The notes beneath the pieces were generated by a model, which was not told the DNA's origin, searched no databases, and was given only the letters and a program-made list of their open reading frames with translations. DNA of 64,000 nt from Patescibacteria group bacterium (lineage in GTDB: Bacteria > Patescibacteriota > Patescibacteriia > 2-01-FULL-39-33): positions 145,685 to 209,684 of the forward strand of contig JBAZKF010000001.1 in the NCBI GenBank assembly GCA_041650895.1. Direction: 5' to 3'. A program made the translations under genes and the position numbers. Positions within the stretch are counted from its first letter, which is position 1; each line of letters begins with the position of its first letter. Shown here in pieces: positions 29,255 through 64,000 of this stretch.

Positions 29255-30682
29255 CTATTTAAGGACGTTTTTAAAAATGTTAAGTCCCAGCAGAATATCT
29301 TTCAAGTCTGCCAGGGACTTGATTTTTTTTAGCCGATAAATAATATATTTCGGACGTAAATAAAACTTAATAAAGGCTTTGCGTTTTAATTTCAGCAGGG
29401 TATCACTGCTTAAATCGGGCAAATCCATCGGCGGTATATGATTGGAGACTGAACAAAAATCACTCCAATCAAAATCTTTCCTGATGTATCCGCGAGCCTT
29501 TGCTTCTTCATACATGGGAGTTCCCGGATAAGGAATGGCAACAAAAAAGGCTGCTGTGTCCAGATCCAAGCTACAAGCAAAATCAATCGTCTGATTAACC
29601 GTCCAAGGATCTTCGTCAATATAACCAATAATGAATGCTCCGGAAACCAAGATGTCGTTTTTACGGCATAAGTCAACGGCTATTCTAGCTTGTTCCAGTG
29701 TGGCGCCCTTGCACATCTTATCTAAAATTCTCTGCGAGCCCGATTCAAAACCAAAACCGATCCTTTTACAGCCGGCCCGTCTCATTAACTTGAGCATTTC
29801 ATTATTTACCGAATCAACTCTGGCCATAACCACCCAAGAGATATCCAGCTTCCGCCGGATAATCTCTTCACAAAATTCCTTCACTCTATCTTTATTAGCC
29901 GTAAAGAGTTCGTCATGGAAATTAAAAGAAGTAGCCTGGTAATTTTTCATGCATTCTTCAATCTCGGCCAAAACATTACTCACACTCCTAGTACGATAGC
30001 GCCTTTTCCAAACTGATTCCGCCATGCAAAAACCGCAACGATAAGGACAGCCGCGGCCGGATATGATATTAATCGCCTGCCCCGAGTCCGTCGTTCTGGT
30101 CGGCGGCAAGTAATACTTTTCAACCGGCAATAAATCACGAGCCGGGAACGGTATGGTATCAAGATTATCAATCAGCGGGCGGGGTTCTGTTATTAATATT
30201 TCAGCATTATCGCGATAAGCGATGCCTTTAATCACCCCGAAATCGACTTGCTCGGATATTAAGGCGCGGATTAATTCCAAAAAAGTGACTTCCCCTTCGC
30301 CCAAGACGCAAAAATCTATTGCCGGCATACCCCGCATTGTTTCTTCGGCGGCAATTGTCGGATGTGGCCCGCCGACAATGATTTTTATTGCGGGATTAAT
30401 GACTTTTATCCGCCGCGTAATTTCTTTGAGTTGTTTATAGACAGGCGTGGGGAAAGTCAAAGCGATAAATTGCGGCATGATTTCCTTAATCTTTTCATCT
30501 ATCTGATCATAGGACATTTCCAATGCCTCACCGTCAAGAATTGTTATTTCTACTTCCTGTTCATATTGGCGCAAATAAGCCGCCAGATAAGCCAAATTAA
30601 GCGGAGCGGTTTTCCCACCCTGCCCTTCGATACCGTCATAATTAGTGAAAGGCGGATTAATCAATAAAAGTTTATACTTCAT
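29255..30682 (-). CDS. B12-binding-domain radical SAM enzyme (class B), paralogue rS2
   Basis: 475 aa. IVGGPHPTIAA...VLGEGEVTF, GRGCPYRCGFC, C-terminal FIKFYLRPKYIIYRL. Confidence 0.9.
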   Translation of the reverse strand: MKYKLLLINPPFTNYDGIEGQGGKTAPLNLAYLAAYLRQYEQEVEITILDGEALEMSYDQIDEKIKEIMPQFIALTFPTPVYKQLKEITRRIKVINPAIKIIVGGPHPTIAAEETMRGMPAIDFCVLGEGEVTFLELIRALISEQVDFGVIKGIAYRDNAEILITEPRPLIDNLDTIPFPARDLLPVEKYYLPPTRTTDSGQAINIISGRGCPYRCGFCMAESVWKRRYRTRSVSNVLAEIEECMKNYQATSFNFHDELFTANKDRVKEFCEEIIRRKLDISWVVMARVDSVNNEMLKLMRRAGCKRIGFGFESGSQRILDKMCKGATLEQARIAVDLCRKNDILVSGAFIIGYIDEDPWTVNQTIDFACSLDLDTAAFFVAIPYPGTPMYEEAKARGYIRKDFDWSDFCSVSNHIPPMDLPDLSSDTLLKLKRKAFIKFYLRPKYIIYRLKKIKSLADLKDILLGLNIFKNVLK

Positions 30683-31653
30683 AAGTCGGTCTTTTTAAAA
30701 AAATTCTTTACGGGTAAAAAAATAGCAATTAAAATTAATAAATAAGCGAGACTAAACAAATGTACTATGAAACCAGAAATAATAGACGCTTCCTTATTTA
30801 AGCCTAATAGTCCGAAGCTGATAGCCCAACCTGTTTCATAAGTTCCGAAGTCCCACAATCCCTGGATAGGCAAAAAACTTATTAATTGACTAAAAATCAA
30901 ACCCAGAGTTACTTTAAGCCAGTTAAAATCTATATTTAGGGCACGGAAAAAAACTACGATCATTAAAGAAGCGGACGCCAGCCACAAGAACGAAATCAAC
31001 AAATTAGTCAAGTAAACGGGCCAGGAACGAATTGTTTTGACGCTTGTTGCAACCTCTTCCAACTTAGTAGCCAGCTTAGCGCCAAATTGAAATTTAGTCA
31101 ATCTTGCCCAATGCATTAAAATAACAACCGCTTTAACCAGCCAATCAAGGTAGAATAATATGGCAATCGTGGCTAACCCAAGCATAAAACAGCTTAGATA
31201 GATTCTATTAGGCGGAATGTAGCCGGGGTTAAGCAAAATAAAACCGATCAGAAAAGAAAAAGCCACTGCCAAAAGATCAAAAAATCTGGCTACCAACAGG
31301 ACACTAAGCCCTTCTGCTATGGCTACATTCTCACGTTTTTTTATGAAATAAACAAAACTTAACTCACCGCTTCTAAACGGCATTAAATTACAAAAAAAAG
31401 TATAACCCAAAGTAATTTTCAAGGAACTCAAAAAACTTATTTTCTTAGAAAGAATCAAGACTTGCCAGCGCCAAGCCCGCAAACAAACGCCGATAAAATA
31501 AAAAATAAACGCGATTAAAGCGTAAGTCCATGATATATTTGAAATAATATCCCTGGCTTGAGTGAAATCAATCTGAGTTAAAAGCAAACACAATAAAATT
31601 ATGGTTACGGCCAAGGAGATTGTTTTTTTGCGCTTGGTTATCTTTTTCAACAT
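30679..31653 (-). CDS. UPF0104 / lysylphosphatidylglycerol-synthase-TM-region (flippase-like) family membrane protein
   Basis: 324 aa with about 8 TM helices. Includes LRAWRWQVLI and FCNLMPFRSGELSFVYF. Start and stop overlap the neighbouring genes (ATGA, TAATG). Confidence 0.65.
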   Translation of the reverse strand: MLKKITKRKKTISLAVTIILLCLLLTQIDFTQARDIISNISWTYALIAFIFYFIGVCLRAWRWQVLILSKKISFLSSLKITLGYTFFCNLMPFRSGELSFVYFIKKRENVAIAEGLSVLLVARFFDLLAVAFSFLIGFILLNPGYIPPNRIYLSCFMLGLATIAILFYLDWLVKAVVILMHWARLTKFQFGAKLATKLEEVATSVKTIRSWPVYLTNLLISFLWLASASLMIVVFFRALNIDFNWLKVTLGLIFSQLISFLPIQGLWDFGTYETGWAISFGLLGLNKEASIISGFIVHLFSLAYLLILIAIFLPVKNFFKKTDL

Positions 31654-33488
31654 TATTTTATCAAGTTAAGAAACCACATCTTGCCGGGACTGGTTTCAGC
31701 TTCTATTATTCCCGCCTGAGGCCAATCGACAATGTTTATCGCTTGGCTACTGGAGGAAATCTGCCCCGCTAATTCAGCATCATAACCAATTATATATTTT
31801 ACATTATAAACGTCAAAAGCCGACTGAAGTTTTTGCTCCTGCAATAAATGGTTGATAGTATTCGGAGAAAAATAGACAGTTGATACTCCGGTTAAATAAT
31901 TCAACAGAGGATGCAATGACCTATTGCCTACGGCCACCGCCTCTTCCGGTTTGATGGCGACACCCCAAGAACTGATTTGCTCAGCTGAATAAGCAATTTT
32001 CAAATTTATATTATTATCATATCCCCGGCCCCAATAGACATGATTAGCCTGGACTAAGCCATAAATGATTAAAAGAATAATCACCCCGCCGGCCAGCCGA
32101 CTAAATCTCTTTGCAACATAATAATCGCTGATCATCTTAGCTAAGCTCATCAAGCCCAGACTGATAAAAAGAGCAATCACCCAACCCCAATCCATTAAAT
32201 GATTGCGTGAGGCCAGAACGACGTAACTGGAAATAAAAATAGAAAACACCAGCCAACTGACAAAAAGATTGGTTAGATTCTTGTCTCGACGACTCAAGTC
32301 TTTAATACCCAATAACATTAAAATAAAAAACAGTGATCCGCCAATATACTCCAAGGCGAGAAATCGAGAAAGATGCGCCAGCAGATTATTGGATCCGACA
32401 AGAGCCCGCTCCGCCAAATTGATGGGGCGTATGCCGATATTGGCCCCCACCTTAATCAAGTCAATGCTCTTCAATAATCCTCGACCAGCTATGTCGGAAT
32501 TAAATTTGTCTAAAACCGTTTTCTGATCAAAATAAAAAGTATAGGGATCGGGGAAAAGATGGCCGTAAAAATTAAACTCAGACCAATTATTGGTTTGCGT
32601 CTCGCTGGCAAAAAACACCCTGAAATAATCATTATTACCGCTAAAACCGAATATCGCCGGCAACCAGAAAAAAGCTAATATTACAAAAAAAGGAACAAAC
32701 ACCAAACTGATGTTTCCAAGACTGCTTTTGACGGCATTGTTCCTTAAACCGGTTAAGACGGTTTTAAAACGTAACCAAATCAATCGGAAAAAAGACAAAT
32801 CCGTACGGGAATCGATAATAAGGGGTTGCTCTGAGGACTGAAAAATCAACCAAAAAAATAAAACTGGCGGAAATAAGAACATCACTTCCCGCGACAGGCA
32901 AGCTAGCGACAAAAAGACTCCGGACAAAGGCAGAAAAAAATATCTGCCCTTGACTTTACGGCCGATAAAAAACAAAACGCAAAAAACTGAAAAATACAGC
33001 ATCGCGAATTCGTAGGTGCCGATAGTTTGAACCATCTGGGAATTAAACGGCAATAAGATATAAACCAAAGAAAATATTGCGGCTATTTCCCAATCAAACA
33101 AATAAAACACGACGGCCGCAAATAAAACCAAAGCCAATGCCTGAATAATTACGGCAATGACTATTAAAGTGTTGAAATCTGGCAAGCCGATCAACTGAAA
33201 TAATGCAGCATAAGACCAGGTAGTAAACTTATTGCCCTGGGTACTGAGCTGAGCCCGCTGGCTGACTAAAGACGGCGCCAAAACGACATTGCGGCTGTCC
33301 TCCATGCCGTAAACCCCCGTTTGGACAAGATTCCTGGCCAAAATAAAATTCTCCGCTTCGGCCGGTTGGGCAGTACTGCCCTTAAAAAAAACCGGAAAAT
33401 ACCAAAAACCGGCTGCAACAAAAAAAACTACGGGCAATAAAACAAAAAGAATCGAGCTCTTAAACCTAAAATTTGGCTGTTGCGACAT
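31653..33488 (-). CDS. GT-C-like (ArnT/PMT_2-like) polytopic membrane glycosyltransferase, putative
   Basis: 611 aa with more than 12 TM helices. It has an acidic first loop, AEAENFILARNLVQTGVYG, and a C-terminal soluble segment of about 100 aa. Confidence 0.5.
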   Translation of the reverse strand: MSQQPNFRFKSSILFVLLPVVFFVAAGFWYFPVFFKGSTAQPAEAENFILARNLVQTGVYGMEDSRNVVLAPSLVSQRAQLSTQGNKFTTWSYAALFQLIGLPDFNTLIVIAVIIQALALVLFAAVVFYLFDWEIAAIFSLVYILLPFNSQMVQTIGTYEFAMLYFSVFCVLFFIGRKVKGRYFFLPLSGVFLSLACLSREVMFLFPPVLFFWLIFQSSEQPLIIDSRTDLSFFRLIWLRFKTVLTGLRNNAVKSSLGNISLVFVPFFVILAFFWLPAIFGFSGNNDYFRVFFASETQTNNWSEFNFYGHLFPDPYTFYFDQKTVLDKFNSDIAGRGLLKSIDLIKVGANIGIRPINLAERALVGSNNLLAHLSRFLALEYIGGSLFFILMLLGIKDLSRRDKNLTNLFVSWLVFSIFISSYVVLASRNHLMDWGWVIALFISLGLMSLAKMISDYYVAKRFSRLAGGVIILLIIYGLVQANHVYWGRGYDNNINLKIAYSAEQISSWGVAIKPEEAVAVGNRSLHPLLNYLTGVSTVYFSPNTINHLLQEQKLQSAFDVYNVKYIIGYDAELAGQISSSSQAINIVDWPQAGIIEAETSPGKMWFLNLIK

Positions 33489-33497
33489 AATTTAGAG

Positions 33498-34586
33498 TTA
33501 CTTTAAATGAAAATTCCCAAAAACCGCCCTAAACAAATGCCAAGGGCTCATCATAATATTAGGAAGTTGATAACAATAATGAGTACACCAACATTTCTTA
33601 TTCTTAATATCTAACCGTTGCTGTTTCGCAAGGGATGACTGCCAGGCCTTTCTAAAATCATAATCATAATCCCGCAGATTACCTATCTTGGGCAACATTT
33701 CGCAATTATACATATTACCCCAAGCGTCAATAACGGGGAAAAATAAAGCTGAGCGGCAAGGTAGGATTTGTTTTTTTTGCTTCATTATTTTTAATGCTAT
33801 CTTATGGTAATAAGCATAAAACAGCTTATTGGCCAAATCATTGGCCAATGTCTTACTCTTGAATAAAACACGGCTAAGCAATTCCTCATATTGCCCCAAA
33901 TCTACGGGTGCGATTTTTTGCGGGTCAAACGAACCGCGGATTACTTCAATCGTATGATATGTGATGCCGGGATGCTGATCAACAAAATCAATCACCGCGG
34001 CGATATTATCTTGGTTTACATTAGAAATAGTGGTATTAACACTGACCTGCAACAACTCATTAGTCTTAGCGATAGCCGTCAATTTCTCATACGTATCCAA
34101 AAAAAGCTTAAAGTTTCCAGCTATTCCTCTTACCCGATCATGCACCTCTCCGATTCCGTCCAGAGATAGGACTACTTTTAGTTTTATTGGCACGCGAACC
34201 AGTATCCTTTCGACTTGATCCGCTATCTTATCCGGCAAAAGACAATTAGTCGGTATGGCAATTTTTCTAGTGGCGCTGCAACGGTAAAAAATCTCGCAAA
34301 TTTCCGGCAAATCCGGCCGCAAAAACGGTTCACCTCCACCCAAAGTAACGCTTCTTATGTCGCCAATGGTTTGGGTAAATTTTTCTATTTCCGCTAAAGA
34401 AAGCTCCTTAGTTTCCGTGTTTATCACTTGCCAGTTAAAACACATTAGACAACGGGAGTTGCACTTGTTGGTTACTTGAAAAATTAATCCGTAAAGCGGC
34501 CATTCCCTTTTTGATAAAGAATAGAAATAGAACTTGCTTACAGGAAAATATTGTTTAATTATTTTTAATCGTTTAATAAAATCCAT
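33498..34586 (-). CDS. Radical SAM enzyme with Cys-rich SPASM/twitch-like C-terminus (no B12 domain)
   Basis: 362 aa. VTNKCNSRCLMC (CX3CX2C), GGGEPFLRPD, C-terminal LPCRS...YNCE...KKCWCTHYC. Confidence 0.8.
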   Translation of the reverse strand: MDFIKRLKIIKQYFPVSKFYFYSLSKREWPLYGLIFQVTNKCNSRCLMCFNWQVINTETKELSLAEIEKFTQTIGDIRSVTLGGGEPFLRPDLPEICEIFYRCSATRKIAIPTNCLLPDKIADQVERILVRVPIKLKVVLSLDGIGEVHDRVRGIAGNFKLFLDTYEKLTAIAKTNELLQVSVNTTISNVNQDNIAAVIDFVDQHPGITYHTIEVIRGSFDPQKIAPVDLGQYEELLSRVLFKSKTLANDLANKLFYAYYHKIALKIMKQKKQILPCRSALFFPVIDAWGNMYNCEMLPKIGNLRDYDYDFRKAWQSSLAKQQRLDIKNKKCWCTHYCYQLPNIMMSPWHLFRAVFGNFHLK

Positions 34587-34589
34587 AAA

Positions 34590-35546
34590 TTAATCTAGAT
34601 TAAATAACTGCTCTAATTGGTTATTGCTGATCTTTTTTAATCGGCTATTCCTCATTCTGGCATGAAAAATATCAAATGAATTAATAATTATGGAGACAAG
34701 GCTTTTCATAAAGGGCTGGAGATCGGCGGGTTGTCTAAGGCAATGGGCGATATTAAAACGGATATTAAGAGGCAATGATCTGATCAAAAGCAATGCCGGA
34801 TAATTCCTTAGCATAATCAATAGCCGATTACGCATCCACAGGTAGACCGTCCGCTTATTGCCTATTGTCTTATTTACGGTCACGCTCAAACCATGATAGC
34901 TAACGCTGTTTGGCTGATAAACAACTTGATATCCGGCAATATTAACCCTCAACGACAAATCAGTATCTTCATAACCATGATAATATTTTTCGCAGAAACC
35001 ACCGATTTTCTCCAAAACACTGCGCCTGATAATCATGGAAGCGCTACAGGCATAAAGAACCTGCCGACGCTGATTATATTTTGGATCGCTTGATTCTGCG
35101 CCAATACCAATATCATAGCCTTTACCGCGAAACAATATACTACCGCCGGCAGCAGCGATTTTTTCCGGCATACCAGCGAAAAGAATCTTACCTACAGCCT
35201 GGCCGACATTACCATTTGAATCCATTAATCGCACCATCTCAGCCAACCAGGTTTTAGAAAGAACGGCGTCATTATCCATAGTCACTACATATTCAGCTCG
35301 GCCGGAATCAATCCCTTTATTACGCGCCGCCGCCGGACCCAGGTTAGCCTTATTCTCAATAACGGTAATTCCAGGATAGTGCCGTCGAAAATAATCCACT
35401 GAGTCATCCGGAGAATGGTCATCAACCAAAATAATATTATAGTCAATATACGTTGAATCCAACAAAGAGTCAAGGCATTTCGCGGTCAATTCCTTGTTCT
35501 TGTAATTACAAACCACAATATCAATTTTGGGATTAATTTGATTCAT
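34590..35546 (-). CDS. Glycosyltransferase family 2
   Basis: 318 aa. IDIVVCNYKN, ILVDDHSPDDS, NLGPAAARNKG, TMDNDA. Confidence 0.85.
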   Translation of the reverse strand: MNQINPKIDIVVCNYKNKELTAKCLDSLLDSTYIDYNIILVDDHSPDDSVDYFRRHYPGITVIENKANLGPAAARNKGIDSGRAEYVVTMDNDAVLSKTWLAEMVRLMDSNGNVGQAVGKILFAGMPEKIAAAGGSILFRGKGYDIGIGAESSDPKYNQRRQVLYACSASMIIRRSVLEKIGGFCEKYYHGYEDTDLSLRVNIAGYQVVYQPNSVSYHGLSVTVNKTIGNKRTVYLWMRNRLLIMLRNYPALLLIRSLPLNIRFNIAHCLRQPADLQPFMKSLVSIIINSFDIFHARMRNSRLKKISNNQLEQLFNLD

Positions 35547-35550
35547 AAAA

Positions 35551-36975: not shown

Positions 36976-36983
36976 AATAATAA

Positions 36984-38213: not shown

Positions 38214-38216
38214 AGT

Positions 38217-39551: not shown

Positions 39552-39561
39552 TGTTTTAATA

Positions 39562-41058: not shown

Positions 41059-41096
41059 GAATATTTAAAAATTATAAAACCGATTTAATGTGTTTA

Positions 41097-41125
41097 ATTA
41101 TAACAGAAAATACACAATTAATCAA
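41097..41125 (-). promoter_or_regulatory. Candidate internal promoter in the only sizeable gap (63 nt) of the minus-strand array
   Basis: On the minus strand: TTGATT (41125-41120, overlapping the GT9 stop), a 17-nt spacer, then the extended -10 TGtTATAAT (41105-41097). A second TATAAT lies at 41076-41071. Confidence 0.4.
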
Positions 41126-43670: not shown

Positions 43671-43671
43671 A

Positions 43672-49764: not shown

Positions 49765-49768
49765 AATA

Positions 49769-50425: not shown

Positions 50426-50434
50426 TTTTGCCGT

Positions 50435-54775: not shown

Positions 54776-54779
54776 AATA

Positions 54780-57172: not shown

Positions 57173-57858
57173 AAGTTAAACTTAATAATATACCAAATCG
57201 CCGCCAAACCATCTTTCCAGCTTATTTTCTTGCCCTCTTCATAAGTGCGGCCGGCATAAGAAATACCGACTTCATAAATCCGGAATTTACCCCTGGCTAT
57301 CAGGGCGGTAATCTCCGGTTCAACGCCGAATCGATTGGCAGTCAGGCGAGTTTTCAGATAATCAATAACCGGACGATTGAACGCCTTATAGCAAGTCTCC
57401 ATATCTGTTAAGGTCAAATTACTCATAATATTGGAAAAAATAGTCAAAAAAGTATTACCCAGATAATGCCAAAAAAAGAAAACACGGTGAGGTTTGCTGG
57501 TAATGAAACGAGAACCATAAACAACATCAGCCTTGCCGTCAATTATCGGCCCCAATATTTCCTGGTACTCTTGCGGATTGTATTCTAAGTCAGCGTCTTG
57601 AATAATCAATAGATCGCCGGTTGCCACATTAAGGCCACGTTTGATGGCCGAGCCTTTGCCCTCGTTCTTATCCTTTAGAATTACGACGCATTTATCCCGC
57701 GGGCTTGAAATAATATCTCTAGTGCCGTCGGTGGAACCATCATCAATAATAATAATTTCCTTCTCTACGCCGGCAAGCGGCGCTGCCTCCACCTGGCGCA
57801 GTAGTTCCAAGATAGTTTTATGTTCATTATAGACTGGTATGATAACTGACAATTTCAT
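57163..57858 (-). CDS. Glycosyltransferase family 2, polyprenyl-phosphate sugar synthase-like (231 aa, paralogue of 49069..49764)
   Basis: LSVIIPVYNEHKTI, IIIDDGSTDGT, NEGKGSAIKRG, IQDADLEYNP, and C-terminal EEGKKISWKDGLAAIWYIIKF. Confidence 0.85.
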   Translation of the reverse strand: MKLSVIIPVYNEHKTILELLRQVEAAPLAGVEKEIIIIDDGSTDGTRDIISSPRDKCVVILKDKNEGKGSAIKRGLNVATGDLLIIQDADLEYNPQEYQEILGPIIDGKADVVYGSRFITSKPHRVFFFWHYLGNTFLTIFSNIMSNLTLTDMETCYKAFNRPVIDYLKTRLTANRFGVEPEITALIARGKFRIYEVGISYAGRTYEEGKKISWKDGLAAIWYIIKFNLWK

Positions 57859-57873
57859 AAAAATAATTAATAT

Positions 57874-59346
57874 TTAATCGCGTTTAGTATTGATGTCCGG
57901 AGATTTAGGCAAGAAAAAAGAGACTAAAGCCATAAAACCATCAAACAAAATTTTTATATCGTCTAATGATCTAATGCTAAAAATCTTCTTAAGGATGAAT
58001 TTCGGACGAAAATAAAAACTGCGATACATGATTTTATATAAATTCTTTATTTCTTCCGCTGAAAGATTCTCCAATCTCATAACCGGCTTAGCCAAATTAA
58101 AATCATCCCAATTTTCGCTCAACAACAAATCACGTTCCTTGGCCCAATTAAACATGGCCGTGCCGGGAAACGGCGTAGTAATATTGACGATCAGCAAATC
58201 GGGATTTATTTTCTTAACAAAACGGATGTTCTTTTCAATCACTTGGCGACTGTCGCCGGGATTGCCGACCATGAAAGCCAGACGGCATTCTATCCCCGCC
58301 TGCTTAGTCCATTTGACGGCATTGATCACTTGCGGCAAATTGATTTTTTTATTGATATTCTTCAATACGGCCTCATCAACATTTTCCACCCCATACATGA
58401 TCTGATGACAACCGGCGTCTGACATTTTCCGCAACATGGCCTCGTCAACATAATCAACTCGGGCAAAACACGTCCAAGACAAATCCATTTTATTTTTTAT
58501 CAGCAGATCGCACAAGTCAATGACGTTCTGACGAAAAACAGTAAAAGTATCATCATAAAACATGATCTGCCTGATACCGTAATTATCGGCCAAGTATTTT
58601 ATCTCGGCAAAAATCCCGGTGGCCGACTTAAAGATCATCTGATCACCCAAGGTTTTATTGCAGAAAGTGCAACGCCCCGGACAACCTCGGCTAGTCATTA
58701 AACTCATGGCCGGCAACTTCTTATACGAGCCCTTAGCCGGCCGATATTTATCAATCGGCAATAAATCATAAGCCGGCAAAGGCAGATCATCCAAATTGGC
58801 AATCCGCCGACGCGGCGCGTTACGGATTATTTGTTTTTCGCCATTCAATTCTTTCTTATAAACCACGCCGTCAATCTCTTCAATCTTCTTGCCGGATAAT
58901 ATTTCTCCCAAAGTAATCTCCCCTTCGCCGATAACCACCGCATCAACAAATGGTTGATTAATAACCTCATCAGTAACAAAGGTTGCATGAACGCCACCGA
59001 AAATAATCAAAGCATTAGGATAATATAATCGGCAAATTTCCGCCGCCTGATAAGCCTTTTTAATTTGTCCGGTGGTGGCAGTAAAGCCGATCACTCTAAT
59101 ATCCCTGTGATGATCAACAAAATTTTCCTTTAGATAATCGCCGAAGGCCTGGACCGAGGGGCAGGAAACTTCACAATCAATTATCTCTACACTTTGATCC
59201 TGTTGACGGACATAGCCGGCAATGGAAGCCAGCCCCAAAGGAGGGAAATTTGAGTTAATCTCACGCCAAATATTATTCTCATCGCCATAATAATCAGGCG
59301 GAGCGATCAACAAACAATCCAAATTTTTTTGATTATCTTGCGACAT
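57874..59346 (-). CDS. B12-binding-domain radical SAM enzyme (class B), paralogue rS9
   Basis: 490 aa. IFGGVHATFVT...VIGEGEITL, SRGCPGRCTFC, C-terminal MYRSFYFRPKFILKKI. Confidence 0.9.
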   Translation of the reverse strand: MSQDNQKNLDCLLIAPPDYYGDENNIWREINSNFPPLGLASIAGYVRQQDQSVEIIDCEVSCPSVQAFGDYLKENFVDHHRDIRVIGFTATTGQIKKAYQAAEICRLYYPNALIIFGGVHATFVTDEVINQPFVDAVVIGEGEITLGEILSGKKIEEIDGVVYKKELNGEKQIIRNAPRRRIANLDDLPLPAYDLLPIDKYRPAKGSYKKLPAMSLMTSRGCPGRCTFCNKTLGDQMIFKSATGIFAEIKYLADNYGIRQIMFYDDTFTVFRQNVIDLCDLLIKNKMDLSWTCFARVDYVDEAMLRKMSDAGCHQIMYGVENVDEAVLKNINKKINLPQVINAVKWTKQAGIECRLAFMVGNPGDSRQVIEKNIRFVKKINPDLLIVNITTPFPGTAMFNWAKERDLLLSENWDDFNLAKPVMRLENLSAEEIKNLYKIMYRSFYFRPKFILKKIFSIRSLDDIKILFDGFMALVSFFLPKSPDINTKRD

Positions 59347-59351
59347 AGCTT

Positions 59352-61559
59352 TTAAAGGAATCGACTAAAAAACGCTCTGAATCCGTCACTGGTCAACAAC
59401 CATAAATAGTCAACCAAAACAATAACGATAACGACCGCAACCCGACTCGGCCAGCGGTAAAAATATTTTCTTAACCCGTTAACGGCCAACAAGGTTAATA
59501 GCAAAGCCAGGACAAAATACAAACGAGATGACACACCGGTCCAAAGCAAAAACATAAACGACGGCAGAATCAGGCACTTAACCAGGAACCTCTGATCGGC
59601 GGTAAACTCCCGCCATTTAATCAATCCTAACGGCACCAAAAGCCAAGCAGCCAGATAAACGCCGACGATACTCTTAACAACAAAAAACGGCTGATATTCG
59701 GAACCGCTGGGAGCGCTAATGCCCAGTTTATACCAATCCAAATATGAATAATGATAAATGAAATAAACCACGATTTGCCAAGCGATTAAGGGCAAGCCGA
59801 CCGCTAAGGTTGATAAAAATAATTTTTTGAGTTTTTCGGCTCGAGGCAGTTGCGGATGGAAACATATCACCAGATACAGGAAAGCCATACCCAAACTGCT
59901 ATATTCTTTCCATAACATGCCAACAACAACCATCAACGAAGTTAAAAATAAATTAAAGTTGTTAGGCCGTTTATAAAATCTAATGACGCCGATAGCGGCC
60001 AAAACCCAGAATAATTGGGCGCCCGACTCGGTAAACAAATCCAAGCCATACTTAAGTAACGGATAGGAAGAAATATAAATCAACGCTCCCAGAAGCGCCA
60101 TTCCTCTATTTTTAAAAAACAAATAAAATAAAACGTAAACGGCTAAAGCCAAAAAAACATAAAATATAATCGCCTCTATCTCAAAAGCTAACGATAGATT
60201 GCCACCGGTTAAAAACGACAGTCCGGCAATACCCATAGGCCCCAACGGTTTTAAAATTCTGGAAGGAAAACTCTCCGCCATTTGTCCCATAAACAGCTTA
60301 GCCGTTTCCATATACTGATAAGCATCGCCGTTAATGCTAAAACCGACAAAATTGAGCCGAATAAACACGTTCAACGCTACCGCGGTTAAGATTAAAAGAA
60401 TCGGCCAAAAATGATTATTGGTCGACTTGGTCGGCCGGCACTTTTTGTCTATGGCTGTTTGCCAGCTTTTCAGATAAAGCGCCAAATTTTCCTCTCGGCC
60501 GGGCAAAATGTTAATCGCCGATTCGGCCGACTGGCTGAGTTGCCGGCGCAAGCCAATATTCTGAATAATCTTTTTCATGGCGTCAGCTAATTTTTCTTCG
60601 TCGCCAACGGGCGTGATTAATGCGCTGACTCCGTCTTTCAACACCTCACCGGCGCAACCGACATCAGTCATCACTACCGCCAAACCGCAACTGGCGGCTT
60701 CTATTATCACCATCCCCCAACCCTCATAATCAGAACTCAAAACATAACTATCGGCTGAGTTGTAATAATCATAAATATTGTCAGTCCAACCGATCAAAAA
60801 GATTTTATCCTCCAAGCCGGATTCTTTTATTTGTTGGGCGAGTTTGTCTTTTTCCGGACCGCGACCGACTATAAGCAAAACCGCCTCCGGCAATTGCCGG
60901 GCAACCGTGGCGAAAGCTCTGATCAGCAACGGCAGATTTTTCTGTTTTACCAATCGAGCCATAGTCAAAAAAACAGTTTTGCCGACTAAGCGGCCGAAAA
61001 TCTCCGGCTTAGTTTCGCTGAATTGCTTCTCGGGCTTAACATAGACAGGAACAACAACAATTTTATCTTCGGCTATATGCAAATCATTAACCAAAGTATC
61101 CTTTATCCGCTCACTGACTGCGCGCACGCTGTCGGCTCGCTTAATCAGCCAGCGCCCCAGATAATAACGGCAAAAGTTAATAGGATTTTCATTGCGCCAA
61201 TAAGTCGCGCTAAAAAAATCGCCATGTTCCTGAATATTCAAAGCGCTCTTGAATTTCCTAGCCAGCAATAATCCCATCAGCGACAATTCAAAAGGATCTT
61301 GAACCGTTATGACATCATAATTATTCTGGCGGAACAGTTTTTTCGCTAACCGATACATATTGAATAGTGCCGCTAATCGGTTGCCGCCACCCGTGCCGTA
61401 AGCCGTTACTTTTTCTGATAATTTAATTTCTTGCGCTGGCGTAGCGGGCACGATAATATCATAAGCGTCCGTCATAACGCCATACTCAATCAAACGCCGA
61501 GTTACGGGTGATGAGGAAACGAATACGCCTTTATCGGTGCCTAAGTTTAATACTTTCAT
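59352..61559 (-). CDS. Fusion protein: N-terminal GT4 glycosyltransferase + C-terminal polytopic membrane (GT-C-like) domain
   Basis: 735 aa. Residues 1 to about 370 are GT-B (KQKNLPLLIRAF...SDYEGWGMVIIEAASCGLAVVMTDVG). Residues from about 385 onward are about 11 TM helices, starting at NHFWPILLILTAVALNVFIRL...INGDAYQYMETAKL. Confidence 0.8.
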   Translation of the reverse strand: MKVLNLGTDKGVFVSSSPVTRRLIEYGVMTDAYDIIVPATPAQEIKLSEKVTAYGTGGGNRLAALFNMYRLAKKLFRQNNYDVITVQDPFELSLMGLLLARKFKSALNIQEHGDFFSATYWRNENPINFCRYYLGRWLIKRADSVRAVSERIKDTLVNDLHIAEDKIVVVPVYVKPEKQFSETKPEIFGRLVGKTVFLTMARLVKQKNLPLLIRAFATVARQLPEAVLLIVGRGPEKDKLAQQIKESGLEDKIFLIGWTDNIYDYYNSADSYVLSSDYEGWGMVIIEAASCGLAVVMTDVGCAGEVLKDGVSALITPVGDEEKLADAMKKIIQNIGLRRQLSQSAESAINILPGREENLALYLKSWQTAIDKKCRPTKSTNNHFWPILLILTAVALNVFIRLNFVGFSINGDAYQYMETAKLFMGQMAESFPSRILKPLGPMGIAGLSFLTGGNLSLAFEIEAIIFYVFLALAVYVLFYLFFKNRGMALLGALIYISSYPLLKYGLDLFTESGAQLFWVLAAIGVIRFYKRPNNFNLFLTSLMVVVGMLWKEYSSLGMAFLYLVICFHPQLPRAEKLKKLFLSTLAVGLPLIAWQIVVYFIYHYSYLDWYKLGISAPSGSEYQPFFVVKSIVGVYLAAWLLVPLGLIKWREFTADQRFLVKCLILPSFMFLLWTGVSSRLYFVLALLLTLLAVNGLRKYFYRWPSRVAVVIVIVLVDYLWLLTSDGFRAFFSRFL

Positions 61560-61567
61560 CTCAATAA

Positions 61568-63013
61568 TTATTTAGTAATAAATTTCTTGGCCAATTTAAA
61601 TTCCACCGGCCAGAAAAAAAATTTCAATTTCCAACGCAGTTTACATAAACAAATAAAACAGAATTTGAGTAATTTATTGGAAGAGACAGTTGAATTCATC
61701 GCGCTCTTGAATGACAAGGCGCCGAATCTGACATAGGCCTCCATTGATTCCACAAAGTCCTTGTCCTTAACCCAAGGAAAATTCTCTACTGACATGTAGC
61801 TCAACTCGTTCTCTGAAACCTTTTTCCATTCCTCAAGCGACTGCGGTTCCCGCCAGCCGGCCTTGACGCATTCCTCATATAACTCTGATCCGGGGTAGGG
61901 GCGAAACGCTTGAGGGCCCAAAATCTGGACCTCGTCGCTTAAGGCGATTAAGCGATCAATCAACCTCAGGGTTTCCTGCATATCACTCCGCGACTCGCCA
62001 GGCAAACCAATCATGAATGAATACTGAGGTATGATGCCATGCTTGAGGCAGGCCTTAGCGGAAGCGACTATGTCATCGGCGGTAACGTCTTTTTTGATCA
62101 TTTTTAAGATACGGCTACTGCCGGATTCGGCGCCGAAAGACAACAAATAACAGCCGGACTGCTTTAACTTGGCTAAAAGTTCATCATCCACCATCCCCGG
62201 CTTAAGGTAATCGGCGCGAATAGTGGTTTCCCAAGGCAAAACCAGATCTTCCCTAATCATGCCGTCAATGATCGCCTTAGCGCGGCTGATATCCACAAAA
62301 AAGTTCTCGTCCCAAAAACGCAATTTCTTGCCCTGGAAATACTCCTTGGCCTTAATTATCCGTAAATCCTCAAGCACCTGCTCGGTCGTCCGAGCGCGCC
62401 AATGATTTTTCAAAATCGCATTAATGCAAAAAGTACAACGATGCGGACAACCGCGCGAAGTTAGAGAAGGAATCAAATATAGATGCTCTCTGATTTCCTG
62501 AGGCACTAAATCCCAATTAAATAACGGCATGGCTTGGGGTTGATGCAGGGGTTGCGGCTGATTGACAATAACTCTCCCGTCAGCGCAATAAGCGAGGCCT
62601 TTGATTTCTGCCAGGGATCGGCCTCGCGCCAACTGCAACATGGTTTCTTCGCCTTCGCCGATAACTACTATATCAATCAGCGGATTTTTGGCTGTCTGCT
62701 CAATAAAAAAAGTCGGATGCGATCCGCCCCAAACAATTTGGGCGGCGGGATTGATTCTTCTGGCCAACTCGGAGATTTTCAAGGCATTGGAGATCTGCAT
62801 GGTCATAACTGAAACACCGATCAAATCAAAATCCTTAATCGCTTGCTCCAATAAGCTCAAATAATCCTTCTGCCTGACGCCGTCTATCATCTTGACCTCC
62901 ACTCCTTGACTATCTAAGTAGGTGGCAATACTCAACAAACCGACAGAAATAGAGCTGTCGTAATTATCTTTAACTATATTAAATTCGGGATTGATCAGTA
63001 AAACTTTTTTCAT
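61568..63013 (-). CDS. B12-binding-domain radical SAM enzyme (class B), paralogue rS10
   Basis: 481 aa. VWGGSHPTFFI...VIGEGEETM and SRGCPHRCTFC. Confidence 0.9.
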   Translation of the reverse strand: MKKVLLINPEFNIVKDNYDSSISVGLLSIATYLDSQGVEVKMIDGVRQKDYLSLLEQAIKDFDLIGVSVMTMQISNALKISELARRINPAAQIVWGGSHPTFFIEQTAKNPLIDIVVIGEGEETMLQLARGRSLAEIKGLAYCADGRVIVNQPQPLHQPQAMPLFNWDLVPQEIREHLYLIPSLTSRGCPHRCTFCINAILKNHWRARTTEQVLEDLRIIKAKEYFQGKKLRFWDENFFVDISRAKAIIDGMIREDLVLPWETTIRADYLKPGMVDDELLAKLKQSGCYLLSFGAESGSSRILKMIKKDVTADDIVASAKACLKHGIIPQYSFMIGLPGESRSDMQETLRLIDRLIALSDEVQILGPQAFRPYPGSELYEECVKAGWREPQSLEEWKKVSENELSYMSVENFPWVKDKDFVESMEAYVRFGALSFKSAMNSTVSSNKLLKFCFICLCKLRWKLKFFFWPVEFKLAKKFITK

Positions 63014-64000
63014 TGCATTTTTTTCAATAAATCAACGGTTTGATCCACTGTCTGCCGCCAAGAAAAATCTTTCAGCTTGACTGTTGCCGCTTCGGTCAGC
63101 TTTTGAGCCAAAGGACGGTCAGTCAATAGTCGGAAAATCGCTTCAATTAATTGTTTTTGATTATTGTAGTTTACCAGCAAGCCGTTCTGGCCGTCTGTAA
63201 TAACCTCGGGATTGCCGCCGACGTCAGTGGCGATTACCGGCGCCCCGGCTTTTATGGCTTCCAATAATGTATGGGACAGGCCTTCATAATTGGTGTTTAA
63301 AACAAAAACATCGGCGTGACTGAAATATTCCAAAACTTTTTCATGCGGTACGCGATCAAGAAACTTTATTTGCTCGGCCAGTTTCAAAGACTGAGCCAGG
63401 TTCTGCAGATTCTCTAACTCCGGACCATCGCCCAAAACGATCAAATAGGCCCGACCCAAACGCTTGATGATTTCCGGCATCGCCCGGATTAATTGATCCA
63501 CGCCCTTCCATTTGGTTAACCGGCAAGCCGTCATAATTATGGAACCGTCGTTAGGCAGATTAATGGGGGCTGATTTATTAACGCTAACCTCATCGCCAAA
63601 ATCAATCGCATTATATATGACATTTATTTTGGCTAAGTCAACGCCGATCAGCTTGGCCAAATCGCCCATAAAATTGCTGACGGCAATAATCGCATCGGCT
63701 TCCAATAATATCCGGCGGCGACGCGCTTTCATTCTTTCAATTTGTTGATTATAAATATTCTTTTCAAAGTCGGTGATGTAATCGGTTGTCCAGCCGTTAG
63801 CGGTGGCTGTTTCCCAGGCGGCATCGCCGGCAAACCTGACTAAATATTTTTTCTTGGTTATTTTTTTTATCAAATTGGCAAACCAGCCGACACTGTAGAT
63901 ATCGGTTACATAAATCAGGTCGGCGTTAAAAGACAGGAAAAGCATAGCCAAAAAATAATGCAACCGACTGAAAACTTTATTTTTTGCCACTCGATAAACG
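63010..64000 (-). CDS. Glycosyltransferase family 4 (5' end probably beyond the right window edge)
   Basis: The track starts it at GTG 63990, but the frame stays open to position 64000 and the N-terminal Rossmann half looks about 70 aa short. C-terminal NYEGLSHTLLEAIKAGAPVIATDVGGNPEVITDGQNGLLV (EX7E). It has an ATGA overlap with rS10. Confidence 0.75.
   Translation of the reverse strand, partial: VYRVAKNKVFSRLHYFLAMLFLSFNADLIYVTDIYSVGWFANLIKKITKKKYLVRFAGDAAWETATANGWTTDYITDFEKNIYNQQIERMKARRRRILLEADAIIAVSNFMGDLAKLIGVDLAKINVIYNAIDFGDEVSVNKSAPINLPNDGSIIMTACRLTKWKGVDQLIRAMPEIIKRLGRAYLIVLGDGPELENLQNLAQSLKLAEQIKFLDRVPHEKVLEYFSHADVFVLNTNYEGLSHTLLEAIKAGAPVIATDVGGNPEVITDGQNGLLVNYNNQKQLIEAIFRLLTDRPLAQKLTEAATVKLKDFSWRQTVDQTVDLLKKMQ

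What the first reader, a model, noticed from the sequence alone, without database searches (positions are those of the whole stretch)
29255..64000. A 26-gene, ~35-kb co-directional array with pervasive start/stop overlap, and only one gap able to hold a promoter
From the right edge down to 29255, every gene is on the minus strand. Junctions are overlaps or small gaps. Four junctions are ATGA overlaps (63010-63013, 51550-53, 42255-58, 30679-82) and one is TAATG (31653). Four are longer overlaps of 10, 14, 17 and 20 nt, and most gaps are 1-18 nt. The single larger gap (41059-41121, 63 nt) contains a good extended -10 promoter candidate (TTGATT-17-TGtTATAAT). Such packing implies obligate co-expression and probably translational coupling of the rSAM and GT genes.
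Basis: seen in the sequence. Interest (0 to 1): 0.4.

Follow-up and report, generated by a model that had tools for sequence, protein, structure and literature searches.

The report
Tightly packed glycan-synthesis operon, CPR bacterium
This is most of a roughly 37-kb, 29-gene sugar-polymer synthesis operon from an ultrasmall groundwater (Patescibacteria) bacterium; its tight packing and conserved internal promoter are ordinary operon biology, but its twelve radical-SAM enzymes mixed with sugar transferases are unusual.

Summary
There are 26 complete genes plus one cut by the window edge, all on the minus strand. 25 of 26 junctions are 18 nt or less, and a single 63-nt gap carries TTGATT-17-TGtTATAAT. 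One error: 42255-58 is TTGA, not ATGA.

The packing is tighter than in the flank of the same window (median 3.5 vs 31.5 nt, p=4e-5). It is conserved in relatives with 52-90% protein identity.

The gap motif is very probably a real sigma-70 extended -10 promoter. Box, spacing and TG are kept in two relatives. Four other promoters in this window and the array-head promoters of relatives have the same architecture.

The array continues about 2.3 kb past the right edge, to a head promoter inferred from relatives. That gives at least two promoters, so 'one unit' is too strong. Embedded promoters are not excluded; TGGTATAAT at 37010-37002 is a candidate.

Shine-Dalgarno motifs are absent (1 of 26 starts). 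Every start sits in an AU-rich, unstructured window. Coupling is well grounded only at the four -4/-1 overlaps.

The content is a flippase-dependent, lipid-linked glycan pathway: 11-12 glycosyltransferases, 10 B12-radical-SAM paralogs and 2 other radical-SAM enzymes. I found no paper describing such a locus. The operon finding is ordinary; the gene content is moderately novel.

The parts
63010..64000 (-). g27, GT4 glycosyltransferase. Its 5' end is cut off by the window edge.
   Evidence: Pfam Glycos_transf_1 1.7e-43, with the N-terminal GT4 domain truncated. No in-frame stop before the edge. Full-length 383-385 aa orthologs exist in L005 and L006.
61568..63013 (-). g26, B12-binding radical SAM enzyme. 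It is the conserved head-module gene and overlaps g27 by ATGA.
   Evidence: Pfam B12-binding plus Radical_SAM. CPHRCTFC motif. 174 metagenome relatives. The upstream junction overlaps in 44 of 65 relatives. Nearest solved structure is MgmA, 9CCB.
59352..61559 (-). g25, GT4 glycosyltransferase with a C-terminal polytopic membrane domain of unknown family.
   Evidence: Pfam. About 9 hydrophobic segments after residue 380.
57874..59346 (-). g24, B12-binding radical SAM enzyme.
57163..57858 (-). g23, GT2 glycosyltransferase.
56570..57172 (-). g22, class I SAM methyltransferase. Overlaps g23 by 10 nt.
55498..56589 (-). g21, GT1/GT4-type glycosyltransferase. Overlaps g22 by 20 nt.
54780..55514 (-). 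g20, polysaccharide deacetylase. Overlaps g21 by 17 nt.
53696..54775 (-). g19, GT1/GT4-type glycosyltransferase.
51550..53709 (-). g18, B12-radical SAM enzyme fused to a MetW-like SAM methyltransferase. Overlaps g19 by 14 nt.
50435..51553 (-). g17, GT4 glycosyltransferase. ATGA overlap with g18.
49769..50425 (-). g16, class I SAM methyltransferase.
49069..49764 (-). g15, GT2 glycosyltransferase.
47611..49050 (-). g14, B12-binding radical SAM enzyme.
45035..47599 (-). g13, fusion of a membrane GT-C (PMT_2/ArnT-like) domain with a radical SAM/SPASM domain.
   Evidence: Pfam PMT_2 plus Radical_SAM plus SPASM. 8 or more TM segments. Homologs also occur as GT-C alone, as GT2-GT-C, and as GT2-GT-C-rSAM triple fusions.
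43672..45021 (-). g12, B12-binding radical SAM enzyme. Start taken as ATG 45021, giving a 13-nt gap.
   Evidence: The 451-aa ortholog in L002 supports this start.
42255..43670 (-). g11, B12-binding radical SAM enzyme.
41122..42252 (-). g10, GT9 (heptosyltransferase-like) glycosyltransferase. Start ATG 42252, 2 nt after the g11 stop.
41097..41125 (-). P2, an internal sigma-70-type extended -10 promoter: TTGATT-17-TGtTATAAT. The -35 box overlaps the g10 stop codon, and the -10 box ends 38 nt before the g09 ATG.
   Evidence: Conserved in L001 (TTGATT-17-TGtTATAAA) and L002 (TTGATT-17-TGgTATAGT). Same architecture as four other promoters in this window and as array-head promoters in relatives. No RNA structure or Rfam family in the gap.
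39562..41058 (-). g09, B12-binding radical SAM enzyme. First gene downstream of P2.
38217..39551 (-). g08, Wzx-type lipid-linked oligosaccharide flippase.
   Evidence: Pfam Polysacc_synt and Polysacc_synt_3. 11 hydrophobic segments.
36984..38213 (-). g07, GT4 glycosyltransferase.
37002..37010 (-). Candidate embedded promoter P3: an exact TGGTATAAT inside the 3' end of g07, 26 nt before the g06 ATG. It has no good -35 box.
   Evidence: Identical in L001 and degenerate in L002. Synonymous-site conservation here is 12 of 12 but not significant after multiple testing.
35551..36975 (-). g06, B12-binding radical SAM enzyme.
34590..35546 (-). g05, GT2 glycosyltransferase.
33498..34586 (-). g04, radical SAM enzyme without a B12-binding domain.
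31653..33488 (-). g03, a 611-aa polytopic membrane protein with a GT-C fold. It resembles oligosaccharyltransferases and ArnT, and is the candidate final glycan transferase.
   Evidence: No Pfam or PDB sequence hit. Only 10 homologs found. AF2 model pLDDT 74, pTM 0.78. Foldseek matches AglB, PglB, STT3 and ArnT, with E down to 2.5e-7.
30679..31653 (-). g02, LPG_synthase_TM-family membrane protein. TAATG junction with g03.
29255..30682 (-). g01, B12-binding radical SAM enzyme and last gene of the array. ATGA overlap with g02.
29273..29331 (+). Intrinsic terminator of the convergent plus-strand glycan operon (23051-29251). It lies inside the 3' coding end of g01. The two converging stop codons are 3 nt apart.
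   Evidence: Hairpin of -24.4 kcal/mol, z=-3.45, followed by U8.
23051..29251 (+). Convergent partner operon of six genes: initiating phosphoglycosyl transferase (Bac_transf), GT2, methyltransferase, deacetylase, FemAB-like acyltransferase and a tenth B12-radical SAM. It supplies the initiating step the array lacks.
   Evidence: Colinear in L085. Junctions of 13, 14, -14, -11 and 4 nt.

Best explanation
The region is the larger part of a surface-glycan biosynthesis operon of about 29 genes and 37 kb. The organism is a Patescibacteria (CPR) bacterium close to Candidatus Buchananbacteria.

Transcription, part shown and part inferred:
- It enters at a head promoter about 2.3 kb beyond the right edge of the window. 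This is inferred from relatives, where a TTGAnn-18-TGnTATAAT promoter sits in a short divergent intergenic region.
- It enters again at a conserved internal extended -10 promoter, the only element in the single 63-nt gap (41125-41097).
- No terminator precedes the internal promoter. It therefore most likely boosts, or independently drives, the last nine genes: rSAM, Wzx flippase, GT4, rSAM, GT2, rSAM, GT-C transferase, LPG_synthase_TM membrane protein and rSAM.

Translation:
- Genes are translated without Shine-Dalgarno pairing.
- The last ~20 nt of each upstream gene and the first codons of the next form an AU-rich, unstructured window where ribosomes can start.
- At the four -4/-1 overlaps, termination-reinitiation coupling is likely.

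Function, inferred:
- A phosphoglycosyl transferase in the convergent operon primes a polyprenyl-phosphate carrier.
- About ten GT2/GT4/GT9 enzymes extend the glycan.
- Ten B12-dependent and two other radical SAM enzymes, three SAM methyltransferases and a deacetylase tailor it.
- Wzx flips it across the membrane.
- GT-C enzymes (g03 and the N-terminal domain of g13) transfer or decorate it outside the membrane.
For: Layout and junctions. Packing tighter than the flank of the same genome.

Synteny and junction geometry:
- Gene order conserved in relatives at 52-90% protein identity.
- Junction distances conserved (for example -4, -10, -20, -4, -1, -4).

Array continues beyond the edge:
- g27 is truncated.
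- Relatives carry two further genes, then a divergent gene.
- Head promoters in relatives.

Internal promoter:
- Exact motif.
- Of 6 exact TGnTATAAT in the window, 4 sit in intergenic DNA upstream of genes in the right orientation.
- -35 box, 17-nt spacing and TG kept in L001 and L002, while the leader diverges.
- The gap RNA is unstructured (z=-0.03) and matches no Rfam family.
- In REL2 an extra gene is inserted exactly at this boundary.
- Across about 80 loci, strong promoter motifs are roughly 9-fold enriched after gaps of 40-250 nt, against less than 2-fold before tight junctions.

Translation:
- SD-like 4-mers before 1 of 26 starts, against 10% background; 81% A+T upstream.
- 60-nt folding energy at starts -5.0 against -10.1 kcal/mol, p=8e-10.

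Function:
- Pfam and NCBIfam assignments.
- Intact CX3CX2C motif in all 12 rSAM proteins.
- g03 has a GT-C fold.
- GT-rSAM domain fusions in g13 and its homologs.
Against: - There are no transcript data, so both promoters, read-through across the gap and the absence of other start sites are inferences.
- The window's own upstream sequence could not be retrieved. The head is known only from relatives.
- The promoter pattern alone is not rare in 128 kb of sequence: 4 matches against 2.3 expected.
- The L001 version of the -10 box is TATAAA, which lacks the usual final T.
- Comparative scans for embedded regulatory elements had low power, with 2-5 sequences.
- No B12-rSAM reaches any curated family cut-off. 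Chemistry and substrates are unknown.
- No Wzy polymerase or chain-length regulator was found in the window.
- No intrinsic terminator was found at the 3' end of the array.
Confidence: 0.7

Rival explanations
1. This is one obligately co-expressed unit whose only internal promoter-capable site is the 63-nt gap, with general translational coupling of rSAM and GT genes.
For: - 25 of 26 junctions are 18 nt or less.
- Promoter motifs concentrate in gaps across related loci.
- No significant synonymous-site conservation islands lie inside genes.
- Two good-looking embedded motifs are not conserved.
- The g27>g26 overlap is conserved in all close relatives, and the junction overlaps in 68% of 65 relatives.
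Against: - A conserved internal promoter by definition allows separate expression of g09-g01.
- The array's head lies outside the window.
- Only 4 junctions have the -4/-1 geometry for which coupling is experimentally established, and coupling falls off steeply by about 20 nt (PMC10666635).
- No SD motifs exist, and each start is independently accessible.
Confidence: 0.2
2. The array is several overlapping transcription units. Additional promoters are embedded in the AT-rich 3' ends of upstream genes, so tight packing says little about co-expression.
For: - An exact TGGTATAAT lies 26 nt before the g06 start and is identical in the closest relative.
- There are 18 relaxed extended -10 motifs on the coding strand, against 12.4 +/- 3.2 expected and 6 on the antisense strand.
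- Tight junctions across loci show a modest excess of strong motifs in the 100 nt upstream: 0.048 against about 0.027 per gene.
- The 3' ends of genes are 81% A+T.
Against: - The excess is small.
- The best consensus match (31816-31789, 11 of 12) and the motif before g11 are not conserved in relatives.
- 9-mer conservation with REL1 is uninformative at about 80% nucleotide identity.
- No synonymous-site conservation island is significant.
- The AT-richness is equally explained by selection for unstructured translation starts.
Confidence: 0.3
3. The packing is just genome streamlining in an ultrasmall CPR genome. It carries no regulatory meaning specific to this locus.
For: - The source is a Patescibacteria MAG with a 958-kb contig.
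- 67% of same-strand junctions in related loci are below 25 nt.
Against: - Within the same window, housekeeping-side junctions are much looser: median 31.5 against 3.5 nt, Fisher p=4e-5.
- The tight geometry, including specific overlaps, is conserved between genomes.
- The one gap that persists is the one holding a promoter.
Confidence: 0.1
4. The conserved element in the 63-nt gap is not a promoter. It is instead a protein operator, or an RNA element such as an attenuator or a processive-antitermination signal (for example ops/JUMPstart or EAR).
For: - Long polysaccharide operons elsewhere use such elements (own knowledge: RfaH/ops, UpxY, LoaP, EAR).
- The window and L002 also share the spacer sequence.
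Against: - Only the two hexamers, the TG and the 17-nt spacing survive in L001, which is the signature of a promoter.
- The RNA of the gap folds no better than shuffles (z=-0.03).
- No Rfam family matches.
- The ops motif is not found beyond chance, and none lies in a leader.
Confidence: 0.07

Closest known systems
Long polysaccharide and O-antigen/capsule biosynthesis operons (Wzx-dependent loci of Gram-negative and Gram-positive bacteria; B. subtilis eps; Bacteroides capsule loci)
   Same: - Co-directional, tightly packed runs of glycosyltransferase, tailoring and flippase genes.
- A conserved module followed by a variable module across strains.
- An initiating phosphoglycosyl transferase nearby and a Wzx flippase.
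- Internal promoters are common in such operons (own knowledge).
   Different: - About 29 genes in a roughly 1-Mb genome, around 4% of the contig.
- Twelve radical SAM genes, ten with B12-binding domains.
- No RfaH/ops, EAR or other known antitermination element found.
- No Wzy_C or chain-length regulator in the window.
- No Shine-Dalgarno sites.
Lipid-linked oligosaccharide / oligosaccharyltransferase pathways (Campylobacter Pgl with PglB, archaeal Agl with AglB) and ArnT/Gtr-type GT-C decoration systems
   Same: - The g03 model has the GT-C fold. Its best matches are AglB, PglB and STT3, then ArnT.
- The N-terminal domain of g13 is PMT_2/ArnT-like.
- A GtrA-like protein (22525-22992) and GT2 genes are adjacent.
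- GT2-GT-C fusions occur in homologs.
   Different: - Sequence identity is only 11-14% and TM-score about 0.5.
- Catalytic motifs such as WWDYG were not examined.
- The acceptor is unknown.
- In g13 the GT-C domain is fused to a radical SAM/SPASM domain.
Class B (cobalamin-dependent) radical SAM enzymes (MgmA, OxsB, TsrM, GenK, HpnJ, BchE)
   Same: - N-terminal B12-binding domain plus a CX3CX2C radical SAM core in ten paralogs.
- Nearest solved structure is MgmA, 9CCB, at E=5e-25.
- Best sub-threshold family matches are HpnJ and BchE.
   Different: - None reaches a curated family cut-off.
- Paralogs are only 23-36% identical to each other.
- The setting is a glycan locus. The 2026 review of these enzymes (PMC12931638) does not mention that substrate class.
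Translational coupling by termination-reinitiation at ATGA/TAATG overlaps (Huber et al., PMC6728339 and PMC10666635)
   Same: - Three ATGA junctions and one TAATG junction.
- The g27>g26 overlap is conserved in close relatives, and the junction overlaps in most others.
- Such overlaps are reported to be enriched among subunits of complexes (PMC10666635).
   Different: - 22 of 26 junctions are not -4/-1.
- No SD motif lies upstream of the restart codons.
- Each start is in an open AU-rich window that permits de novo initiation.

Membership tests
Operon (polycistronic unit) | Uninterrupted co-directional genes with short intergenic distances | tested here: met
   27 consecutive minus-strand genes. 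25 of 26 junctions are 18 nt or less, tighter than the flank.
Operon (polycistronic unit) | Gene order conserved across genomes | tested here: met
   Colinear in REL1 (L006/L001) and L085. Largely colinear in REL2 and L005.
Operon (polycistronic unit) | Promoter upstream of the first gene | not testable with these tools
   The first genes lie beyond the window edge and the source contig could not be fetched. Relatives have TTGAnn-18-TGnTATAAT at the head.
Operon (polycistronic unit) | No internal terminators; a single transcript | tested here: inconclusive
   Terminator-like hits are only slightly above shuffles (26 vs 19.1 +/- 4.5; 33 vs 23.0 +/- 5.5), and none lies at a junction. Transcripts cannot be tested here.
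Sigma-70 extended -10 promoter | -35 TTGnnn, 17 +/- 1 nt spacer, TGn, TATAAT, at a suitable distance from a start codon | tested here: met
   TTGATT-17-TGt-TATAAT, with the -10 box ending 38 nt before the g09 ATG.
Sigma-70 extended -10 promoter | Conserved boxes and spacing with a diverging leader in relatives | tested here: met
   L001 has TTGATT-17-TGtTATAAA and L002 has TTGATT-17-TGgTATAGT.
Sigma-70 extended -10 promoter | Mapped transcription start | not testable with these tools
   No transcript data are available.
Translational coupling by termination-reinitiation | Stop/start overlap of -4 or -1 nt | tested here: met
   Met at 4 of 26 junctions: 63010-13, 51550-53, 30679-82 and 31653. 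42255-58 is TTGA with the ATG 6 nt downstream.
Translational coupling by termination-reinitiation | Shine-Dalgarno motif upstream of the restart codon (reported as important in E. coli pairs; own knowledge of PMC6728339) | tested here: not met
   SD-like 4-mer before 1 of 26 starts, against 10% background.
Translational coupling by termination-reinitiation | Downstream translation depends on upstream translation | not testable with these tools
   Needs reporter assays. Open start regions make independent initiation possible.
Wzx-dependent lipid-linked glycan pathway | Initiating phosphoglycosyl transferase | tested here: met
   Bac_transf at 5.8e-68, at 23051-24400 in the convergent operon.
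Wzx-dependent lipid-linked glycan pathway | Wzx flippase | tested here: met
   g08 matches Polysacc_synt and Polysacc_synt_3.
Wzx-dependent lipid-linked glycan pathway | Wzy polymerase and chain-length regulator | tested here: not met
   No Wzy_C or Wzz hit among the window proteins scanned. A 746-aa Wzy_C protein lies upstream of the array in relative L006.
Wzx-dependent lipid-linked glycan pathway | Extracytoplasmic transferase or ligase | tested here: inconclusive
   g03 has a GT-C fold resembling AglB, PglB and ArnT at 11-14% identity. Catalytic motifs and acceptor were not established.
Class B cobalamin-dependent radical SAM | B12-binding domain plus CX3CX2C radical SAM core | tested here: met
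   Nine genes in the array plus one in the convergent operon.
Class B cobalamin-dependent radical SAM | Membership of a characterised subfamily (HpnJ, BchE, PhpK, MgmA and others) | tested here: not met
   All NCBIfam scores are far below the curated cut-offs.
RfaH/ops or EAR-type processive antitermination | ops (GGCGGTAGnnTG) or a known antitermination RNA in a leader | tested here: not met
   3 one-mismatch hits against 2.2 expected, none in a leader. No Rfam family found.

The most novel reading that the evidence does not exclude
The locus encodes a 'radical-tailored glycan assembly line' that is widespread in Patescibacteria. Glycosyltransferases and B12-dependent radical SAM enzymes would work as physically coupled pairs on a lipid-linked oligosaccharide.

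Hints for pairing:
- The conserved GT4/rSAM overlap at the array head.
- GT-C-rSAM and GT2-GT-C-rSAM fusion proteins.

The product would be a heavily C-modified surface glycan whose synthesis depends on cobalamin. Whether this bacterium must scavenge cobalamin was not tested. This would be a substrate class not yet described for class B radical SAM enzymes.
Probability: 0.3. Interest if true: 0.65.

Novelty: new variant of a known kind. Interest (0 to 1): 0.35.

Why it matters
As an operon, this is textbook. It mainly shows that CPR bacteria use canonical sigma-70 extended -10 promoters, and SD-free, AU-rich translation starts, in very long operons.

The gene content is more interesting. About 4% of a roughly 1-Mb contig is devoted to one glycan locus with twelve radical SAM enzymes. 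Its head module recurs in at least 174 stretches of metagenome sequence, most of the named ones from groundwater and sediment samples.

If the radical SAM enzymes act on the glycan, this would open a new substrate class for B12-dependent radical chemistry. It would also point to a surface structure likely to be relevant to how these episymbionts interact with hosts.

Tried and rejected
- Fetching the window's own contig to see beyond 64000 failed. Four exact-protein look-ups found nothing, although a 100% identical g03 protein exists in an NCBI MAG.
- Synonymous-site conservation scans for embedded regulatory elements, with 3-5 sequences and pairwise, gave nothing significant.
- The best consensus promoter match in the array (31816-31789, 11 of 12) is not conserved in L085. 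TGGTATAAA before g11 is not conserved either. Both were rejected as chance.
- 9-mer conservation against REL1 proved uninformative.
- A riboswitch, attenuator or known RNA in the gap was rejected. The ops element was rejected.
- No intrinsic terminator lies downstream of g01 on the minus strand (z=+1.9).
- A GC-rich region at 1-2300 was suspected to be a structured RNA. It has no Rfam hit and is a helicase-like ORF running off the left edge.
- Literature searches for B12-rSAM/glycosyltransferase arrays in CPR found nothing relevant. Searches on SD usage in CPR also found nothing.

Full report
OBSERVATION

The ORF map shows only minus-strand long ORFs from 29255 to the right edge. I count 26 complete genes (g01-g26) and a 27th, a GT4 glycosyltransferase at 63010-64000. 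The 27th is cut by the window: there is no in-frame stop before the edge, and its Pfam alignment lacks about 65 N-terminal residues.

Junctions were read base by base.
- Three ATGA overlaps are correct: 63010-13, 51550-53 and 30679-82.
- One TAATG junction is correct (31653).
- There are four longer overlaps (10, 20, 17 and 14 nt).
- Sixteen gaps are 1-18 nt.
- One gap is 63 nt (41059-41121).
The start supported by independent gene calls in a relative is the ATG at 42252, which gives a 2-nt gap.

The gap contains TTGATT(41125-41120)-17 nt-TGt-TATAAT(41102-41097). The -35 box overlaps the g10 stop codon.

IS IT MORE THAN CHANCE?

In the same window, the 26 same-strand junctions left of the array have a median gap of 31.5 nt, with 11 of 26 at 18 nt or less. 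Five of those eleven belong to the convergent glycan operon. The array has a median of 3.5 nt and 25 of 26 (Fisher p=4e-5). So the packing is a property of this locus and not only of a streamlined genome. In about 80 related loci, 67% of same-strand junctions are below 25 nt.

SOURCE AND RELATIVES

A 100% identical g03 protein belongs to an NCBI 'Patescibacteria group bacterium' MAG with a 957,791-bp contig. The closest genomes are Candidatus Buchananbacteria MAGs.

The relatives compared were:
- REL1 (L006 plus L001, one 262-kb contig) together with L085;
- REL2 (L008 plus L002);
- L005.

REL1 with L085 is colinear with the window, and REL2 and L005 largely so, at 52-92% protein identity. Junction geometry is largely conserved: -4, 8, -10, -20, 4, -4, 9, 4, 13, 1, 2, 3, 8, -1 and -4 are identical in REL1 or L085. 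A few junctions drift, for example -14 against 2 and 11 against -13. The one long gap persists at the same place, at 94 nt in REL1 and L085 and 60 nt in REL2.

THE ARRAY IS LONGER THAN THE WINDOW

In L005 and L006, two further genes precede the g27 ortholog: a UDP-glucose dehydrogenase-like gene and another GT4. In L006 these are preceded by a divergent GT4 gene across a 62-nt intergenic region. That region carries TTGAAA-18-TGcTATAAT. L005 carries TTGATT-18-TGaTATAAT.

By this proxy the window's array has about 29 genes, spans about 37 kb, and starts about 2.3 kb beyond position 64000. I could not fetch the window's own upstream sequence.

Across about 50 longer metagenome loci the head is conserved: a divergent GT4, then 2-6 genes, then GT4-B12-rSAM-GT4L. 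The downstream content varies. This resembles the conserved and variable regions of O-antigen and capsule loci.

PROMOTERS

This genome uses canonical extended -10 promoters. Of six exact TGnTATAAT in the 64-kb window, four lie in intergenic DNA upstream of a gene in the right orientation, each with a TTGnnn -35 box:
- 2342-2314;
- about 22533-22495;
- about 23007-22981;
- 41125-41097.

A TGgTATAAA promoter faces the convergent operon.

The gap promoter keeps its -35 box (6 of 6), its 17-nt spacing and its TG in both relatives. In L001 the spacer and leader have diverged and the whole motif has shifted relative to the stop codon. That is the signature of a promoter, not of an RNA element.

Other readings of the gap were tested:
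- The gap RNA folds no better than shuffles (z=-0.03).
- It matches no Rfam family.
- There is no ops motif.
- In REL2 an extra rSAM gene is inserted exactly at this boundary, which fits a module border.
- No terminator-like structure precedes the promoter, so read-through from upstream is expected.

IS IT THE ONLY INTERNAL PROMOTER?

I tested this in four ways.

1. Across about 80 related loci, strong motifs occur at 0.126 per gene in the 100 nt upstream of genes that follow a 40-250-nt gap. Background is about 0.007 per 50-nt bin. Upstream of tight junctions the rate is only 0.048, against about 0.027 expected. Embedded strong promoters are therefore uncommon but not absent.

2. In the window, relaxed extended -10 motifs on the coding strand number 18, against 12.4 +/- 3.2 expected.

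3. The best consensus match (31816-31789) and the motif before g11 are not conserved.

4. An exact TGGTATAAT at 37010-37002 lies 26 nt before the g06 ATG. It is identical in REL1 and sits in a block of 12 of 12 conserved synonymous codons. That block is not significant after multiple testing, and the motif has no -35 box.

Synonymous-site scans found no significant island anywhere, but power was low. My verdict is one well-supported internal promoter, one candidate, and others not excluded.

TERMINATORS

Terminator-like hairpins are only slightly more frequent than in shuffles, and none lies at a junction. No structure follows the g01 stop on the minus strand (z=+1.9).

The convergent plus-strand operon ends 3 nt from g01. 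It has a strong hairpin plus U8 at 29273-29331 (-24.4 kcal/mol, z=-3.45), embedded in the 3' coding end of g01.

TRANSLATION

SD-like 4-mers precede 1 of 26 array starts, against 10% of random coding positions, and 4 of 26 other starts in the window. The 20 nt upstream of starts are 81% A+T, against 59% background.

Sixty-nt windows centred on the starts fold at -5.0 kcal/mol, against -10.1 for the array at large (p=8e-10). The structure minimum runs from -20 to +40.

Each cistron therefore has its own open, SD-independent initiation site, built partly from the 3' end of the preceding gene.

Published reporter work shows that termination-reinitiation coupling needs -4/-1 overlaps or very short distances, and is almost abolished at about 20 nt (PMC10666635; also PMC6728339). 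By that standard coupling is well grounded at four junctions and plausible but weaker elsewhere.

The junction between g26 and its upstream gene overlaps in 44 of 65 relatives, and is -4 in all close ones. The cited paper links such overlaps to subunits of complexes. g13 and its homologs also fuse GT and rSAM domains in one chain. Together these are indirect hints that GT and rSAM enzymes work together.

WHAT THE LOCUS MAKES (INFERRED)

The array holds:
- GT4 x6, GT2 x3 and GT9 x1;
- a GT-C/rSAM-SPASM fusion (g13);
- a GT-C-fold protein with no sequence-family assignment (g03; AF2 pLDDT 74, with Foldseek matches to AglB, PglB, STT3 and ArnT down to E=2.5e-7);
- nine B12-rSAM genes, one of them fused to a MetW-like methyltransferase;
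- one further rSAM gene;
- two stand-alone methyltransferases and a deacetylase;
- a Wzx flippase;
- an LPG_synthase_TM protein.

The convergent operon adds the initiating Bac_transf phosphoglycosyl transferase, a GT2, a methyltransferase, a deacetylase, a FemAB-like acyltransferase and a tenth B12-rSAM. A GtrA-like gene follows.

All twelve rSAM proteins keep the CX3CX2C motif. The B12 paralogs are only 23-36% identical to each other. None reaches a curated NCBIfam cut-off, and the best sub-threshold matches are HpnJ and BchE. The nearest solved structure is the C-methyltransferase MgmA.

The most economical model has four steps:
1. A polyprenyl-phosphate-linked oligosaccharide is assembled and radical-tailored in the cytoplasm.
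2. Wzx flips it across the membrane.
3. GT-C enzymes transfer or decorate it outside the membrane.
4. The acceptor and the chemistry remain unknown.

COMPARISON AND NOVELTY

The operon architecture is a new member of a well-known kind: a long polysaccharide operon with an internal promoter. I found no literature on B12-rSAM/GT arrays in CPR. A 2026 review of B12-rSAM enzymes does not mention glycans. The head-module rSAM has at least 174 relatives in metagenomes. I therefore rate the locus a new variant of a known kind. I rate the finding as written (packing and one promoter) as largely ordinary, with interest 0.35.

LIMITS

- There are no transcript data.
- The head of the array is inferred from relatives.
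- The comparative tests for embedded promoters had low power.
- All enzyme functions are family-level inferences.

Noticed in passing
window 29273-29331 (+), inside g01 (29255-30682, -): The terminator of the convergent plus-strand operon is a strong hairpin (-24.4 kcal/mol, z=-3.45) followed by U8 and flanked by an A-tract. It is embedded in the 3' coding end of the array's last gene. The converging stop codons are only 3 nt apart (29251 and 29255). No terminator was found for the array itself.
   Followed up: partly
window, all gene starts (array and flank): Shine-Dalgarno motifs are essentially absent: 1 of 26 array starts and 4 of 26 others. Starts sit in AU-rich windows (81% A+T) with weak predicted structure. 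I found no paper on SD usage in CPR/Patescibacteria.
   Followed up: partly
window 45035-47599 (-); homologs P0018-P0020, P0024, P0035: g13 fuses a membrane GT-C (PMT_2) domain to a radical SAM/SPASM domain. Homologs occur as GT-C alone (~470 aa), GT2-GT-C (~700 aa), GT-C-rSAM (~850 aa) and GT2-GT-C-rSAM (~1080 aa). This is Rosetta-stone evidence linking glycosyl transfer and radical chemistry.
   Followed up: partly
window 31653-33488 (-): g03 is a 611-aa, roughly 11-TM protein with no Pfam or PDB sequence hit. Only 10 homologs were found among 5.8 billion proteins. It is predicted to have a GT-C fold similar to the oligosaccharyltransferases AglB, PglB and STT3.
   Followed up: yes
L005 1-80; L006 6660-6740; array heads of L008, L022, L029, L040, L080: Directly after the head promoter's -10 box, a leader motif is conserved across distant relatives: TATAAT-ATTAAGGTAT(A)TT, followed by ...AATCAAG. 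The promoter at window ~22533-22495 has a similar TATAATATAAGGGAG. Its function is unknown; it could be the initial transcribed sequence or a regulatory site.
   Followed up: no
L006 7586-7639; L005 930-976: The 47-54-nt gap between the first and second genes of the array in relatives contains three copies of a 9-mer in alternating orientation: CTACGTAAC, GTTACGTAG, GCTACGTAAC. These could form alternative hairpins, which looks like an attenuator or an operator. This region lies outside the window.
   Followed up: no
window 1-2342 (-): A helicase-like ORF of more than 700 aa (TGSGKTT P-loop) runs off the left edge. Its GC content is 51.6%, against about 42% elsewhere, so it may be foreign DNA. 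A near-perfect promoter, TTGACA-17-TGaTATAAT, precedes it at 2342-2314. No Rfam family matches the region.
   Followed up: partly
window 51550-53709 (-): g18 fuses a B12-radical SAM enzyme to a MetW-like class I SAM methyltransferase. Two different methylation chemistries therefore sit in one polypeptide.
   Followed up: no
window 22525-23060: A GtrA-like gene (-) and the Bac_transf-led operon (+) diverge from a short region. It carries back-to-back extended -10 promoters: TGtTATAAT on the minus strand and TTGTTT-17-TGgTATAAA on the plus strand.
   Followed up: partly
window 18201-18351 (-): A tRNA-Val(CAC) and tRNA-Ala(CGC) pair sits inside the minus-strand housekeeping run.
   Followed up: no
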